64,000 nucleotides of DNA from Malacoraja senta (taxonomy: Eukaryota): assembly GCA_038087875.1 (NCBI GenBank), contig CM075978.1, positions 78,616,001-78,680,000 on the forward strand. The letters are read 5' to 3'. Positions 12,214-17,100 of this stretch are shown here, piece after piece (the first letter of the stretch is position 1; the number at the start of each line of letters is the position of its first letter). Made by a program: the position numbers.

Positions 12214-14048
12214 TTAAGTATAAAATATACTGATTTTGTTTTGTTTTATACCGATACAATGACATATTTTCACTAAAAACAATTTGATGGAAATAGTGTT
12301 TCTTTTAAAACAAGTCACAATGAGCCCAAACAATGTATCATATGCGCATCCATTTAAAAAAATAGGACATAAGTTCTGAACAATAACTTTGAAAAACCAT
12401 ACCATACTATAAAATGATTTGATGTACGGTACACGCATATTTTTCTAGTCTGTAAGTAGCACAAACCCAGATGCTCCTCCTTGACATTCAACTTCATCAC
12501 TTTTGCTGAATCCCTAACCATCAGGATCTTGGGTATCATTGTTGATCATAAATTTAACTGGACTAGCCACATGAATATTGCATTTGTCAACAAGAGCAAA
12601 TCAAAGGCTATACATTTAATAATGGGCAATTCACCTCAGACTTTGTATCACTTTCCCACCATCTGCAACTCATGAATTGGAAGAGTCTGTTGAATTGCAG
12701 CTCTAGCAATACACAAGGAGCTTATAACGGTACCCGGACGTGGCGTCGAAGGACGAGAAGCCGAAGCGAAGAAGTGGAAGCCAAATAACCAAACGGAAAC
12801 AATGGTGAAAAGCCAAATAACCGAAAGCGTTCAATGCCGAAAAGCCAAATAACCGAACGGATGCGATGCCAAAAAGCCAAATAACCGAACAAACGCAACG
12901 GCGAAAAGCCAAATAACTGAAAGGGCACGTCGCCGAAAAGCCAAATAACCGAAAAGGCTCAACGCGAAAAGCCAACTAACTGAACGGAACGCCGAAAAGC
13001 CAAATAACGGACATGACGTTGCCGGAGGGCGGGACTTGTCAGCGATTGGTTCAGACCCCCGCGGCCATCACATCACTGGCCGGGGGAGACGGGAGGGTGG
13101 GGGTCATTTTCCCACATAAGACCGCCCCGGGGCTGGAGGGTGACTGGGCACTCTGAACCCGAGCACCAAGGTGTAAGTGGCCGAAGGAGCACATCTCTCG
13201 GGACAGCCAGCACTCTCCCCGCGGGGTCAGCGCTGTCCGGCCATGGCTGCCCTCCGCCTCATCTACCCCTTGCGGCCGCACTGTGACGGGCTGTGGGTTG
13301 GCAGCGCACAGACACACGGAGCCGGGTGGAGCGGGGCCGCGGCTCCGGGCAGCAGACACACGTTGAACGAAAACCAGGCAACATCCCCGTCAGCTGCAGC
13401 AGAGTTGAGGACAGTCTGGTCCCTCCGCCCACCCAGAGTCACTGACCGCCACCGGCACCCGACCCCCACACCAGGGTGATTCACCCCCTGACCCCTGGAC
13501 CCCGACCCACACACGGGGTGATTCACCCCACCCCGACCCACACACGGAGAGATTCACCCCCCGACACCCACACCGGGTGATTCACCCCCTCCCCGGCCGC
13601 GCAGACAGATGGCCCGGAGCACTGGCAGCCATAGTAAATCGCTTTTAAAACATGGGGGGACACACAAATTCCCTGGCGGGCCGATGACAAGTGTGCATGA
13701 CAACGAACAAATTTATCTCCTCCCACTCCCACCTCCCCCCCTGACAACAAGAAGCACATTTTATTTATTGTTTAAACACAGTAATACCGTCCGGTTGCCT
13801 GCGGTACGCACGCAACGAGCTTCCACGCACAAAACTCATCTGAGCATCTTGAAATCAATCTCATGAGCACGAGTGAAAGATAGCCGGGCGATGCAGTGTC
13901 AATCAGCCCACATCGCACAGAGTGGAAAAGAATGAAATGGAAATTGCAAATTATTCAACTGCAACTTTCCCCCTTCCCCAACACAAAGGCAGCAATAACA
14001 TATTTGCCACATATTTAATCTTCTTCCTGAATATGCATAAAAGAGGCA

Positions 14049-14106
<58 letters not shown>

Positions 14107-17100
14107 CCTCCACTTTCTTCTGACCATGTCTTATGCAATATTCAGCAAGCCAACCTGGACAATTAGTTTGGTGTGACAGCTGTGCAGGAAGGAACTACAG
14201 ATGCTGGTTTTAACCGAAGATGGACACAAAAAGCTGGAGTAACTCAGCGGAATCGGCAGCATGTCTGGAGAGAAGGAATGGGTTTCGGGTCGAGACCCTT
14301 CAGACTAGTAATGCGGTTATTGTTCCGAGCGCCAAATCCCTTCAGCTGTACCTGCAACTGAAGCTATGGGTGGATTAGTAATCCTTGAAGAGGCCCTTTG
14401 GATTAGTAGTCCTTGAAGCTGACACTTTGTTTTTATGTAGAGGGGTAATGGAGGTAAGGTATGTGATTTGAGAGTAATGTATCGTCTTTGGGGGGGAAAA
14501 AAGTACAACTTACTCGACACCGCTGCTAAAATGGCACTGTTAAATGCTCAAATTTCAAAAAAACAAAAGAACTGCAAATAAACGGAGAAAATACAGATTA
14601 TCTGGAGTTTTGTGCGTGGGAGCTTGTTGTGTGCGCATTACGCAGGCAACCAGACAGTATTACTGTGTTTAAACAATAAATAAAATGTGCTTCTTGTTGT
14701 CAAGGGGGAGGGGGGGAGTGGGAGAAGATAAAATTGTTCGTTGTCATGCACACTTGTCATCGGCCCGACAGTCCCCCATGTTTTAAAAGCGATTTACTAT
14801 GGCTGCCAGTGCCCCGGGCAGTCTGTTCCCACAGCCAGGGGAGGGTGAATCTCCCCATGTGTGGGTCGGGGTGGGGGGTGAATCACCTCCTGTGGGGGTC
14901 GGGTGCCGGTGGCGGTGCATCGCGGTCAGTGACTCTGGGTGTGCGGAGGGACCAGACTGTCCCCAACCCTGCTGCAGCTGACGGGGACATTGCCGGGTTT
15001 TCTTCCCCGTGTGTCCGCTGCCCGGAGTCGCGGCCCCGCTACACCCGGCCCCATGTGTGTGTGCGCTGCCGACCCACAGCCCACCACAGTGCGGCCGCAC
15101 GGGGGTGATGAGGCAGAGGGCGGCCGTGGCTGCGCTCCTTCGGCCGCTTACACCTTGGTGCTCGGGTTCAGAGTGCCCAATCACCCTCCAGCCCCGGGCG
15201 GTCTTGTGTGGGAAAATGACCCCCACCCTTCCGTCTCCCCCAGGCAGTGATGTGATGGACGTGGGGGTCTGGACCATTTGCTGACAAGTCCCCCCCCCCG
15301 GCGACGTCATGTCCGTTATTTAGCTTTTCGGTATGCGTCCGTTCGGTTAATTGACTTTTCGGCGTTACGCCCTTTCGGTTATTTGGCTTTTCAGCGACGT
15401 GCCCTTTCAGTTATTTAGCATTTAGGCATCCTGCCCTTTCGGTTATTTGGCTTTTCGGCATTGCATCCGTTCGGTTATTTGGCTTTTCAACGTCGCATCC
15501 GTTCGGTTAGTTGGCTTTTCGGCGTTGAGCCCTTTCAGTTATTTGGCTTTTCGGCATCGTACGCTTTCGGTTATTTGGCTTCCACTTTTTCACTTCGGCT
15601 ACTCATCCTTCGATGCCACATCCGCACACGGCTTTATAACATCAAGGAAAAAGCAATCTTCTTTATCGGTACCCACTTATCCACCATCCTGCGGATGCAT
15701 TCACAGGCACAATACATAGATACATAGATACATAGAAAATAGGTGCAGGAGTAGGCCATTCGGCCCTTCGAGCCTGCACTGCCATTCAATATGATCATGG
15801 CTGATCATCCAACTCAGTATCCCGTACCTGCCTTCTCTCCATACCCCCGGATCCCTTTAGCCACAAGGGCCACATCTAACTCCCTCTTAAATATAGCCAA
15901 TGAACTGGCCTCAACTACCCTCTGTGGCAGAGAGTTCCAGAGATTCACCGCTCTCTGTGTGAAAAAGTTTTTCCTCATCTCGGTCTTAAAGGATTTCCCC
16001 CTTATCCTTAAGCTGTGGCCCCTTGTCCTGGACTTCCCCAACATCGGGAACAATCTTCCTGCATCTAGCCTGTCCAACCCCATAAGAATTTTGTACGTTT
16101 CTATAAGATCCCCTCTCAATCTCCTAAATTCTAGCGAGTATAAGCCAAGTCTATCCAGTCTTTCTTCATATGAAAGTCCTGACATCCCAGGAATCAGTCT
16201 GGTGAACCTTCTCTGCACTCCCTCTATGGCTATAATGTCCTTCCTCAGATTTGGAGACCAAAACTGTACGCAATACTCCAGGTGTGGTCTCACCAAGACC
16301 CTGTACAACTGCAGTAGAACCTCCCTGCTCCGATACTCAAATCCTCTTGCTATGAAGGCCAACATACCATTCGCTTTCTTCACTACCTGCTGCACCTGCA
16401 TGCCTACTTTCAATGACTGGTGTACCATGACACCCAGGTCTCGCTGCATCTCCCCATTTCCTAATCGGCCACCATTTAGATAATAGTCTGCCTTCCCGTT
16501 TTTGCCACCAAAGTGGATAACCTCACATTTATCCACATTATACTGCATCTGCCAAACATTTGCCCACTCACCCAGCCTATCCAAGTCACCTTGCAGTCTC
16601 CTAGCATCCTCCTCACAGCTAACACTGCCCCCCAGCTTAGTGTCATCCGCAAATTTGGAGATGTTGCTTTCAATTCCCTCGTCCAGATCATTAATATAAA
16701 TTGTAAATAGCTGGGGTCCCAGCACTGAGCCTTGCGGTACCCCACTAGTCACTGCCTGCCACTGTGAAAAGGACCCGTTTACTCCTACTCTTTGCTTCCT
16801 GTTTGCCAGCCAGTTCTCTATCCACATCAATACTGAACCTCCAATACCGTGTGATTTAAGTTTGTATCCTAATCTCTTATGTGGTACCTTGTCGAAAGCC
16901 TTCTGAAAGTCCAGATACAACACATCCACTGGTTCTCCCCTATCCACTCTACTAGTTACATCCTCGAAAAATTCTATAAGATTCGTCAGACACGATTTGC
17001 CTTTCGTAAATCCATGCTGACTTTGTCCAATGATTTCACCACTTTCCAAATGTGCTGCTATCCCATCTTTAATAACTGACTCTAGCAGTTTCCCCACTAC

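What the first reader, a model, noticed from the sequence alone, without database searches (positions are those of the whole stretch)
12729..15630. 2.9-kb fold-back element forming a ~1-kb hairpin in the EML6 pre-mRNA
Seen: two ~1.0-1.1-kb inverted arms separated by ~770 nt, a 9-10-bp target duplication, two tiers of subterminal tandem repeats, high CpG content and no transposase. It ends ~550 nt upstream of the 12182 acceptor. Established: long modular TIRs with 9-11-bp TSDs characterise Mutator/Foldback elements. Inference: a chondrichthyan fold-back family whose transcript should form long dsRNA (ADAR or endo-siRNA substrate) and whose DNA could form a cruciform.
Basis: partly seen in the sequence, partly recalled or inferred. 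Interest (0 to 1): 0.65.

Follow-up and report, generated by a model that had tools for sequence, protein, structure and literature searches.

The report
Decayed fold-back DNA transposon in intron
A 2.9-kb non-coding transposon relic with two inverted arms of about 1 kb sits in an intron of an EML6-like gene; it is a real and tidy fold-back element, but which transposon family it belongs to and whether its RNA hairpin does anything remain untested.

Summary
Window 12729-15630 is two inverted arms (1109 and 1026 nt) around a 767-nt loop. It is flanked by a 9/10-nt direct repeat. Each arm has an outer array of 32-bp units and an inner array of 28-31-bp units. CpG observed/expected is 0.85-0.88 against 0.46 for the window. 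No ORF matches a protein family. The element lies 547 nt from the acceptor of a minus-strand EML6-like exon.

The arms are 88% identical in aligned columns and differ by whole-unit indels. This is therefore an old single insertion, not an assembly artefact. The 32-bp units keep a 19-nt core (93% column conservation) beside a variable 13-nt spacer (68%), the pattern expected of phased transposase-binding sites.

The sense RNA folds to -2063 kcal/mol, against -1034 ± 9 for shuffles, with 918 inter-arm pairs. A long imperfect intronic hairpin is thermodynamically expected.

Not shown:
- Superfamily. The 9/10-bp duplication favours Mutator-like, but 8 bp cannot be excluded, and long repetitive inverted repeats occur in several superfamilies.
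- A chondrichthyan family. Only one outside relative of the arm core was found, and it is unnamed.
- ADAR or siRNA processing.

A DNA cruciform is unlikely. Overall this is an ordinary relic, mildly interesting because Mutator-type elements are disputed in vertebrates.

The parts
12720..12728 (.). Left copy of the target-site duplication (GCTTATAAC)
   Evidence: Read. The chance of an equally good flank repeat is 50/20000 to 123/20000.
12729..13837 (+). Left arm (1109 nt)
   Evidence: GC 0.59, CpG o/e 0.88.
12729..12774 (+). Left terminal segment. The outer 6 nt are not complementary to the other end; the rest matches apart from CpG-type transitions.
   Evidence: Alignment.
12775..13012 (+). 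Left outer array: 8 units of 32 bp (the last two are 31 and 28 bp), each a 19-nt core plus a 13-nt spacer. Putative phased transposase-binding sites.
13013..13457 (+). Left GC-rich unique core (GC 0.67, CpG o/e 0.69). It includes the 46-nt stretch 13194-13239 that the right arm lacks.
   Evidence: The outside relative P0122 covers 13187-13489, including the 46-nt stretch.
13458..13593 (+). Left inner array: 4 units of 28-31 bp (C-rich)
   Evidence: (family D4).
13594..13837 (+). Left inner unique segment, the best-conserved part of the stem (142 nt at 90% complementary)
   Evidence: (I4).
13838..14604 (.). Loop (767 nt, GC 0.40, CpG o/e 0.53)
14050..14105 (.). (TA)28 microsatellite inside the loop
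   Evidence: It gives only sub-threshold miRNA-model hits in Rfam.
14183..14307 (+). One copy of a ~125-nt interspersed repeat inside the loop. Probably a secondary insertion.
   Evidence: four copies aligned, sharp shared edges.
14605..15630 (-). Right arm (1026 nt)
   Evidence: GC 0.57, CpG o/e 0.85.
14838..14912 (-). Right inner array: about 2 units of 28-31 bp
   Evidence: (I17-I21).
15311..15584 (-). Right outer array: 9 units of 32 bp
15631..15640 (.). Right copy of the target-site duplication (GCTTTATAAC)
12089..12182 (-). Host exon downstream of the element (EML-type WD-repeat coding). The acceptor AG is at 12184-12183.
   Evidence: Boundaries read by eye. A tblastn HSP of shark EML6 aa 774-846 spans 12204-11872.
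25405..25509 (-). Host exon upstream of the element. It bounds the ~13.2-kb intron that holds the element.
   Evidence: tblastn HSP, 100% identity over 35 aa.

Best explanation
This is the relic of a non-autonomous cut-and-paste DNA transposon of fold-back architecture. It inserted once, as a unit, into an intron of an EML6-like gene and has been decaying since.

**Shown**
- One unit bounded by a 9/10-bp duplication.
- No coding capacity.
- Arms that have diverged by substitutions and by whole-unit indels.
- A 19-nt core repeated every 32 bp, 8-9 times per end.

**Inferred**
- The element was moved in trans by a transposase that made a staggered cut of about 9 bp.
- That transposase recognised the ends through the phased 19-nt cores. 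Thirty-two bp is about three helical turns, so the sites would lie on one face of the DNA.
- The family was CpG-undepleted when it inserted, and the arms have since lost CpGs at about three times the rate of other sites.
- By duplication length the superfamily is most likely Mutator-like (MULE, Foldback or Rehavkus type), but this is open.

**Likely effect on the host.** The intron is transcribed from the minus strand, so the pre-mRNA should contain a ~1-kb imperfect hairpin. Its most likely fate is A-to-I editing and removal with the intron, with no function for the host.
For: **Structure and boundaries:**

**Duplication better than chance:** 50-123 of 20000 random flank pairs do as well.

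**Not an artefact:** 116 mismatches and 163 gap columns separate the arms. The gaps are of repeat-unit size or discrete deletions: 32, 28, 29, 46 and 13 nt.

**Binding-site-like repeats:**
- All 15 matches to the 19-nt core at up to 3 mismatches lie in the arms (7 left on +, 8 right on -). Shuffles give a mean of 0.02.
- Column conservation is 0.93 for the core (17 units) and 0.68 for the spacer (14 units).
- Precedent: transposase THAP-domain binding sites lie in the tandem repeats of Galileo's 0.5-1.2-kb inverted repeats (PMC3688188, passages).

**Non-coding:**
- 0 of 40 scanned ORFs reach a Pfam cut-off.
- The longest arm ORF finds no named protein.

**CpG history:**
- Of 94 aligned sites that are CpG in at least one arm, 47 are kept in both and 37 are TG or CA in the other arm.
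- The mismatch rate is 25.9% at CpG-involved sites and 8.4% elsewhere.
- K2P distance between the arms is 0.13.

**A relative elsewhere:** one 155-aa ORF from an unnamed assembled contig matches both arms' core (E 1e-22 and 1e-11). The match includes the 46 nt that only the left arm keeps.

**Duplication length:** MULE duplications are 8-11 bp and Rehavkus 9 bp (PMC6446971, passages).

**Hairpin:**
- MFE is -2062.7 kcal/mol for the sense strand, with 918 inter-arm pairs, a longest uninterrupted helix of 69 bp and 15 helices of at least 20 bp.
- Ten dinucleotide shuffles give -1034 ± 9.
- The arms meet the operational dsRNA criterion of Zhang et al. 2023 (reverse-complement alignment of at least 80% identity and at least 50 nt nearby; PMC9989829, passages). 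An example is 142 nt at 90% with 815 nt between.
Against: - Only this one copy could be examined, so one duplication with an indel carries the whole superfamily argument.
- If the shared G is coincidence, the duplication is 8 bp. That is the hAT or P range (recalled).
- The outer 6 nt of the ends are not complementary (2 of 6). This is unexpected for transposon tips at about 12% divergence and is unexplained.
- MULEs are reported as doubtful or absent in vertebrates (PMC6446971). MuDR was detected only in human among 23 vertebrates, and the elephant shark is poor in DNA transposons (PMC4350176). The prior for Mutator-like is therefore low.
- The outside relative P0122 stops matching at about 13489, and its last 57 aa match nothing in the window. 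The arm core therefore also exists in a different context.
- The order of spacer variants differs between the two 32-bp arrays. The arrays have either been reshuffled since insertion or were never identical.
- No RNA data bear on editing or small RNAs.
Confidence: 0.72

Rival explanations
1. The architecture is the same, but the superfamily differs. This would be a fold-back derivative of a hAT-type or P-type element, made when one end of an autonomous element was duplicated in inverted orientation. It would not be Mutator/Foldback.
For: - Long internally repetitive inverted repeats occur in several superfamilies. Galileo is P-type with 0.5-1.2-kb inverted repeats (PMC3688188; PMC3573991, search listing only).
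- hAT is found in all vertebrate lineages, whereas MuDR is nearly absent (PMC4350176).
- The duplication can be read as 8 bp (CTTATAAC, with an inserted T on the right) if the shared G at 12720/15631 is chance, roughly 1 in 4.
- Subterminal repeated binding motifs are typical of hAT and P ends (recalled).
Against: - The best reading of the flanks is 9 or 10 matched bases at equal 6-nt offsets.
- The 8-bp reading needs unequal tip lengths (6 and 7 nt).
- The tips do not show the terminal motifs I recall for hAT or P.
Confidence: 0.3
2. Two separate copies of a ~1.1-kb element landed head to head, or one landed beside the other. The 'element' would then be a chance composite.
For: - No other paired copy is available for comparison.
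- The arm core occurs at least once elsewhere in another context.
- The arms differ by K2P 0.13, which could be family divergence rather than age.
Against: - The direct repeat brackets the whole unit, at matching offsets (50-123 of 20000 by chance).
- The arms end at corresponding positions on their inner sides (13837 and 14605).
- No solitary arm or core motif lies elsewhere in 64 kb.
Confidence: 0.08
3. A local inverted duplication of a CpG-rich host sequence arose by replication template switching. No transposition was involved.
For: - CpG-island-like composition of the arms.
- A promoter-like motif cluster read by eye in the left arm.
Against: - The flanking duplication.
- Terminal arrays of a phased 19-nt core at both outer ends.
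- A relative of the core on an unrelated contig.
Confidence: 0.05
4. The hairpin is kept by selection as a functional RNA structure in the EML6 intron, either as a hairpin-RNA or endo-siRNA source or as a splicing modulator.
For: - 52 of the 81 transition differences between the arms still pair as G:U in the sense (minus-strand) RNA, against 29 in the antisense (binomial p = 0.014).
- The sense fold is 62 kcal/mol more stable than the antisense fold.
Against: - The same skew is expected from transcription-associated mutation bias on the sense strand (recalled knowledge).
- The arms carry 35 transversions, unit-size indels and a 46-nt deletion.
- No Rfam family matches at gathering score.
- No RNA data are available.
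Confidence: 0.05
5. An assembly artefact, such as a fold-back chimeric read.
For: None beyond the palindromic layout.
Against: An artefact would give near-identical arms. Here there are 116 substitutions and 163 gap columns, with a CpG-decay signature.
Confidence: 0.01

Closest known systems
Drosophila Foldback (FB) elements
   Same: - Very long inverted arms with internal tandem repeats.
- About 9-bp duplication.
- Arms of unequal length within one copy.
- Most copies non-coding.

(FB properties are partly recalled. One search confirms that FB has long repetitive inverted repeats.)
   Different: - In FB the arms are almost wholly tandem repeats (recalled).
- Here the 32-bp array is 238 of 1109 nt of the left arm and 274 of 1026 nt of the right. 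The inner array adds 136 and about 75 nt. The rest is unique GC-rich sequence.
- No sequence relation was tested.
Galileo (P superfamily, Drosophila)
   Same: - Inverted repeats of 0.5-1.2 kb with internal tandem repeats.
- The repeats carry several transposase-binding sites, the first about 70 bp from the end (PMC3688188).
- Here the first core starts 46 nt from the end.
   Different: - Galileo's duplication is 7 bp (recalled) against 9/10 here.
- Insect host.
- Galileo copies carry transposase remnants, and this one carries none.
Mutator-like elements (MULEs), including Rehavkus
   Same: - Duplication within 8-11 bp (Rehavkus 9 bp).
- Inverted repeats of hundreds of bp.
- Minisatellite near an end in Rehavkus (PMC6446971).
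   Different: - No transposase here to test.
- MULE presence in vertebrates is questioned in that paper.
- Rehavkus is reported there only from arthropods and annelids.
Inverted intronic repeat pairs (such as inverted Alu pairs) as dsRNA and ADAR substrates
   Same: Two inverted, diverged repeat arms within one intron that fold intramolecularly. They meet the criterion of at least 80% identity over at least 50 nt used by Zhang et al. 2023.
   Different: Here both arms belong to one element, and the stem is about 1 kb rather than about 300 nt. Editing is untested.

Membership tests
Class II (cut-and-paste) non-autonomous transposon | Terminal inverted repeats | tested here: met
   Arms are 88.2% identical over 986 aligned columns. 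However, the outer 6 nt are not complementary (2 of 6).
Class II (cut-and-paste) non-autonomous transposon | Target-site duplication directly outside the ends | tested here: met
   9 matched bases plus one indel. 50-123 of 20000 random flank pairs do as well.
Class II (cut-and-paste) non-autonomous transposon | Multiple dispersed copies, and an autonomous partner sharing the ends | not testable with these tools
   No eukaryotic DNA collection was open. There is one outside relative of the arm core (P0122) and none in the window.
Mutator-like elements (MULE / Rehavkus) | Duplication of 8-11 bp (9 bp in Rehavkus) | tested here: met
   9 or 10 bp in the best reading. Range taken from PMC6446971. 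This is a single copy, so 8 bp is not excluded.
Mutator-like elements (MULE / Rehavkus) | MURA-type DDE transposase in the element or in related copies | not testable with these tools
   0 of 40 ORFs in the element match any Pfam family at cut-off. No MULE transposase appears among the 38 ORFs scanned, out of 51 of at least 110 aa in the window.
Mutator-like elements (MULE / Rehavkus) | Long inverted repeats (hundreds of bp) | tested here: met
   Arms of 1109 and 1026 nt. Not specific to this family: long inverted repeats occur in several superfamilies.
Drosophila-type Foldback (FB) | Arms composed almost entirely of tandem repeats (feature recalled) | tested here: not met
   Tandem arrays cover about 374 of 1109 nt (left) and about 349 of 1026 nt (right).
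hAT superfamily | 8-bp duplication and short conserved terminal inverted repeats (recalled) | tested here: inconclusive
   The best reading is 9/10 bp. An 8-bp reading needs the shared G to be chance and the tips to be unequal.
ADAR / endo-siRNA substrate | Long intramolecular dsRNA in a transcribed region | tested here: met
   Computed fold only: 918 inter-arm pairs and MFE -2062.7 against -1034 ± 9 for shuffles. The element lies inside an intron of a minus-strand gene model. Transcription itself was not shown.
ADAR / endo-siRNA substrate | A-to-G mismatch clusters or 21-23-nt reads over the arms | not testable with these tools
   No RNA data were available.

The most novel reading that the evidence does not exclude
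The element is a genuine Mutator/Foldback-type (9-10-bp duplication) family of a cartilaginous fish. Published surveys question or fail to find MULEs in vertebrates. If so, its phased 19-nt cores would be the binding sites of a still undiscovered vertebrate MULE-like transposase. Its insertions in introns would then be a lineage-specific source of kilobase-scale dsRNA.
Probability: 0.25. Interest if true: 0.55.

Novelty: new member of a known kind. Interest (0 to 1): 0.3.

Why it matters
As it stands, this is one more decayed non-autonomous DNA transposon in an intron.

It would matter modestly in two ways.
- If a genome-wide survey confirmed 9-10-bp duplications and a MULE-type transposase, it would bear on the open question of whether Mutator-like elements exist in vertebrates. 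Dupeyron et al. 2019 raise that question.
- A 1-kb intronic hairpin is a clean natural test case for A-to-I hyper-editing, or for small-RNA production, in a cartilaginous fish.

Neither point can be reached from this window alone.

Tried and rejected
- **Other copies in the window.** blastn of the element, the 19-nt core at up to 3 mismatches and an nhmmer profile of the two arms against the window with the element masked found none.
- **Coding capacity.** Pfam on 40 of the 43 ORFs of at least 50 aa gave nothing at cut-off. The 3 ORFs left out are 12567-12788 (+), 12648-12830 (-) and 12694-12852 (+), which lie mostly in the flank.
- **Arm ORF (178 aa) against protein collections.**
  - The word-indexed search at near lengths had 255 candidates and none at E ≤ 1e-3.
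  - The full HMMER scan of 1.84 billion representatives gave 1 hit, P0122.
  - A profile of both returned only P0122 itself.
  - The 'shorter' and 'longer' length classes were not searched for this ORF.
- **Rfam at E ≤ 1 on 12000-16500.** Nine sub-threshold matches: eight at the (TA)28 tract (seven to miRNA models, one to RUF21) and one to a bacterial sRNA model at 14981-15010. No hammerhead or other family appeared, so a Penelope or retrozyme-type origin is not supported.
- **Other element types considered and dropped.** DIRS-like inverted repeats, because DIRS have no duplication (recalled). Twin-priming LINE inversions, because those arms would not be complementary.
- **First chance test for the duplication.** It was redone.
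- **Literature.**
  - 'foldback' + 'transposon' + 'shark' returned 1 paper, a plant review.
  - 'foldback' + 'long terminal inverted repeats' + 'vertebrate' returned 2 papers, 1 listed, on Drosophila.
  - 'MuDR' + 'shark' + 'transposable elements' returned 9 papers, none describing such an element.
  - By these three searches, I found no description of a fold-back element in cartilaginous fish in the held library.
- **Not seen or not open.**
The superfamily tables of PMC6446971 and PMC4350176 may bear on this and were not seen.
  - Genome contigs holds only bacteria and archaea and was not used.
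Full report
**What is there**

The window has no N and is 41.9% GC with CpG observed/expected 0.46. Between 12729 and 15630 lie two inverted arms, 12729-13837 (1109 nt) and 14605-15630 (1026 nt), around a 767-nt loop.

A global alignment of the left arm with the reverse complement of the right arm has 870 matches, 116 mismatches and 163 gap columns. That is 88.2% identity in aligned columns and 75.7% over all 1149 columns.

The gaps are discrete:
- one 32-nt unit missing on the left;
- 46, 28, 29 and 13 nt missing on the right;
- a few gaps of 1-5 nt.

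**Boundaries**

Immediately outside the ends are GCTTATAAC (12720-12728) and GCTTTATAAC (15631-15640). That is nine matched bases with one internal T indel. Each sits exactly 6 nt outside the point where arm complementarity becomes secure.

Among 20000 random pairs of 25-mers from the window, 50 did as well at equal offset and 123 at offset ±2. A laxer statistic gave 339 of 20000. The duplication is thus probably real, though it is not overwhelming on its own.

One oddity remains unexplained. The outer 6 nt of the two ends (GGTACC against the reverse complement CGTGTG) agree at only 2 of 6 positions. The next 40 nt differ almost only by CpG-type transitions.

**Anatomy of an arm, from outside in**

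1. A 46-nt terminal segment.
2. Eight (left) or nine (right) units of 32 bp.
3. A unique core of about 400-450 nt at 67% GC.
4. Four (left) or about two (right) C-rich units of 28-31 bp.
5. A unique segment of about 240 nt. This is the best-preserved part of the stem: 142 nt at 90% complementary.

Each 32-bp unit consists of a 19-nt core and a 13-nt spacer. Over 17 units the core columns average 0.93 for the commonest base. Over the 14 regularly spaced units the spacer columns average 0.68.

All 15 matches to the core at up to 3 mismatches in the 64-kb window are in the arms, 7 on the plus strand on the left and 8 on the minus strand on the right. Shuffles give a mean of 0.02.

A conserved core at a fixed period of about three helical turns is what an array of protein-binding sites looks like. 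Marzo et al. 2013 showed transposase THAP-domain sites inside the tandem repeats of Galileo's 0.5-1.2-kb inverted repeats, the first about 70 bp from the end (PMC3688188, passages read). That the cores here are binding sites is my inference.

The order of spacer variants differs between the two arrays. The arrays have therefore been reshuffled, or they were never identical.

**Loop**

The loop is AT-rich (GC 0.40). It holds a (TA)28 tract (14050-14105) and, at 14183-14307, one copy of a ~125-nt interspersed repeat. That repeat has at least three other well-bounded copies and further fragments in the window, so it is probably a later insertion.

**No coding capacity**

Forty of the 43 stop-to-stop ORFs of at least 50 aa that overlap the element were scanned against Pfam. 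None reached a curated cut-off.

The longest arm ORF (178 aa, 14783-15319, minus strand) gave these results:
- nothing in the word-indexed protein search;
- one hit in the full scan of 1.84 billion representatives, P0122 (155 aa, E 3.9e-14), from an unnamed assembled contig of 1074 nt;
- only P0122 itself when a profile of the ORF and P0122 was searched.

Laid on the window by tblastn, P0122 matches both arms: 15091-14864 at E 1e-22 and 13187-13489 at E 1e-11. The match includes the 46-nt stretch that only the left arm keeps. Its last 57 residues match nothing here.

The arm core therefore exists at least once elsewhere, and the right arm's 46-nt gap is a deletion. But that other copy has a different continuation. 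This is the only outside evidence I could obtain, because no eukaryotic DNA collection was open.

**Age and CpG**

The arms have CpG observed/expected of 0.88 and 0.85, against 0.28 and 0.35 in the flanks.

- Of 94 aligned sites that are CpG in at least one arm, 47 are CpG in both and 37 are TG or CA in the other arm.
- The mismatch rate is 25.9% at CpG-involved sites and 8.4% elsewhere.
- At insertion the arms were therefore not CpG-depleted: roughly 94 CpG in 986 nt at about 60% GC, an observed/expected near 1.
- They have since lost CpGs about three times faster than other sites. This is what methylation-driven decay of a once-fresh element would give.
- The high CpG content is a relic, not evidence of a protected CpG island.

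K2P distance between the arms is 0.13. At a vertebrate-like neutral rate of order 1e-9 per site per year, that means tens of millions of years. The rate is recalled, not measured for this species.

This divergence also rules out a fold-back assembly artefact.

**Host gene**

Exons were compared one by one.

- Two ORFs on the minus strand match Pfam Beta-prop_EML_2 above cut-off.
- The exon-bearing ORF 62799-63152 (minus strand) found 704 longer proteins at E ≤ 1e-5. Of the 120 listed, the great majority are named EML6 and three carry an EML5 name.
- The best identities are 88% (Chiloscyllium plagiosum EML6) and 87% (Pristiophorus japonicus, Mobula birostris). Two teleosts also reach 87% over shorter coverage.
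- tblastn of the Chiloscyllium protein gives collinear minus-strand hits for residues 388-993 across the window.

The element lies in the ~13.2-kb intron between the exon ending at 25405 and the exon starting at 12182. It is 547 nt from that acceptor.

'EML6-like gene, probably of a cartilaginous fish' is a fair description. The taxon is not proven by my calls. Nothing in the window was taken for human.

**RNA hairpin**

The sense (minus-strand) RNA of 12729-15630 folds to -2062.7 kcal/mol. It has 918 inter-arm pairs, 50 of them G:U, a longest uninterrupted helix of 69 bp and 15 helices of at least 20 bp. The antisense RNA gives -2000.8. Ten dinucleotide shuffles give -1034 ± 9.

The arms meet the operational criterion for intramolecular dsRNA used by Zhang et al. 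2023. That paper reports that metazoan A-to-I editing mainly targets dsRNA formed by repeats (PMC9989829, passages).

A long imperfect hairpin in the pre-mRNA is thus expected if the intron is transcribed. Editing is a reasonable guess at its fate. Small-RNA production is more speculative. None of this is tested.

A DNA cruciform is unlikely, given a 767-nt spacer and diverged arms (established knowledge, recalled). The (TA)28 tract is a better local candidate for one.

**A small curiosity**

Of the 81 transition differences between the arms, 52 remain G:U pairs in the sense RNA and 29 in the antisense RNA (binomial p = 0.014). Transcription-associated mutation bias on the sense strand (recalled) would produce this skew. 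Selection for the sense hairpin would produce it as well. I favour mutation bias.

**Which family**

The 9/10-bp duplication falls in the MULE range of 8-11 bp and matches Rehavkus at 9 bp (Dupeyron et al. 2019, PMC6446971, passages).

Several points weigh against a firm assignment:
- The same paper doubts that MULEs exist in vertebrates.
- Chalopin et al. 2015 detected MuDR only in human among 23 vertebrates and found the elephant shark poor in DNA transposons (PMC4350176, passages).
- Long repetitive inverted repeats are not diagnostic of a superfamily.
- If the shared G is chance, the duplication is 8 bp.

I therefore put the Mutator-like reading at roughly 0.4 given that this is a cut-and-paste element, a hAT or P-type fold-back derivative at about 0.3, and the rest unknown.

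It does not meet the strict Drosophila FB pattern of arms made almost wholly of tandem repeats. Here about a third of each arm is tandem repeat.

**Verdict**

This is a real, well-delimited, old non-autonomous fold-back DNA transposon in an EML6-like intron.
- The description is confirmed.
- The family assignment and the RNA consequences are plausible but untested.
- The cruciform idea is weak.
- Interest is modest.

Noticed in passing
window 15712-19700 (-): A LINE lies directly right of the element. Its reverse-transcriptase ORF is 15814-17340 (Pfam RVT_1, E 2.4e-32). An (ATACATAG)3 tail is at 15712-15736, about 70 nt from the element's duplication. A CpG-rich region (o/e 0.65-1.05) at 17701-19700 is probably its 5' part.
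   Followed up: partly
window 14183-14307, 31600-31734, 38877-38999, 50754-50863 (-), and fragments at 49678-49755, 28190-28282 (-), 8866-8914 (-), 51232-51292 (-): A ~125-nt interspersed repeat with sharp shared edges is scattered through the introns. One copy sits in the loop of the fold-back element. Its type was not identified, and Rfam gave no match over the loop copy.
   Followed up: partly
window 43286-43508 and 46777-46998: An inverted repeat pair of about 220 nt (77-80% complementary) brackets the EML6-like exon at 43758-43973 (-). The right member lies at the 3' end of a LINE whose RT ORF is 47682-48569 (-). Inverted repeats on both sides of an exon are the layout known to favour exon loop-out or back-splicing.
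   Followed up: no
window 23015-24646: A ~1.6-kb element has ~200-nt inverted ends (95 nt at 93% and 60 nt at 97% complementary). An internal ORF (23615-24001, -) has a sub-threshold Tc3-type transposase HTH match (27.6 bits against a cut-off of 31.5). It is probably a decayed Tc1/mariner copy.
   Followed up: no
window 56612-56909: A MITE-like small inverted repeat: 78-nt arms, 95% complementary, 142 nt apart.
   Followed up: no
window 12729-13837 vs 14605-15630: There is strand skew in the transition differences between the arms. 52 of 81 keep a G:U pair in the sense (minus-strand) RNA against 29 in the antisense (p = 0.014). Transcription-associated mutation bias would explain it; selection on the hairpin is less likely.
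   Followed up: partly
window 13014-13049 (left arm): By eye, TGACGT (13014-13019), GGGCGGG (13027-13033) and ATTGG (13045-13049) lie just inside the 32-bp array. The layout resembles a CRE / GC-box / CCAAT promoter cluster. It might be the promoter of the autonomous parent element. Two of the three motifs are mutated in the right arm. The motif names are recalled, the motifs are short, and chance was not tested.
   Followed up: no
window 12729-12734 and 15625-15630: The outermost 6 nt of the two ends are not complementary (2 of 6), although the next ~40 nt are nearly so. Unexplained. Possibilities are damaged tips, filler DNA at insertion, or naturally imperfect termini.
   Followed up: partly
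window 301-1000, 32201-33000, 36601-37500, 60801-61400: There are further CpG-island-like stretches (GC ≥ 0.55, o/e 0.6-1.08) inside introns of the same gene. They show no similarity to the fold-back arms. Their nature was not examined.
   Followed up: no
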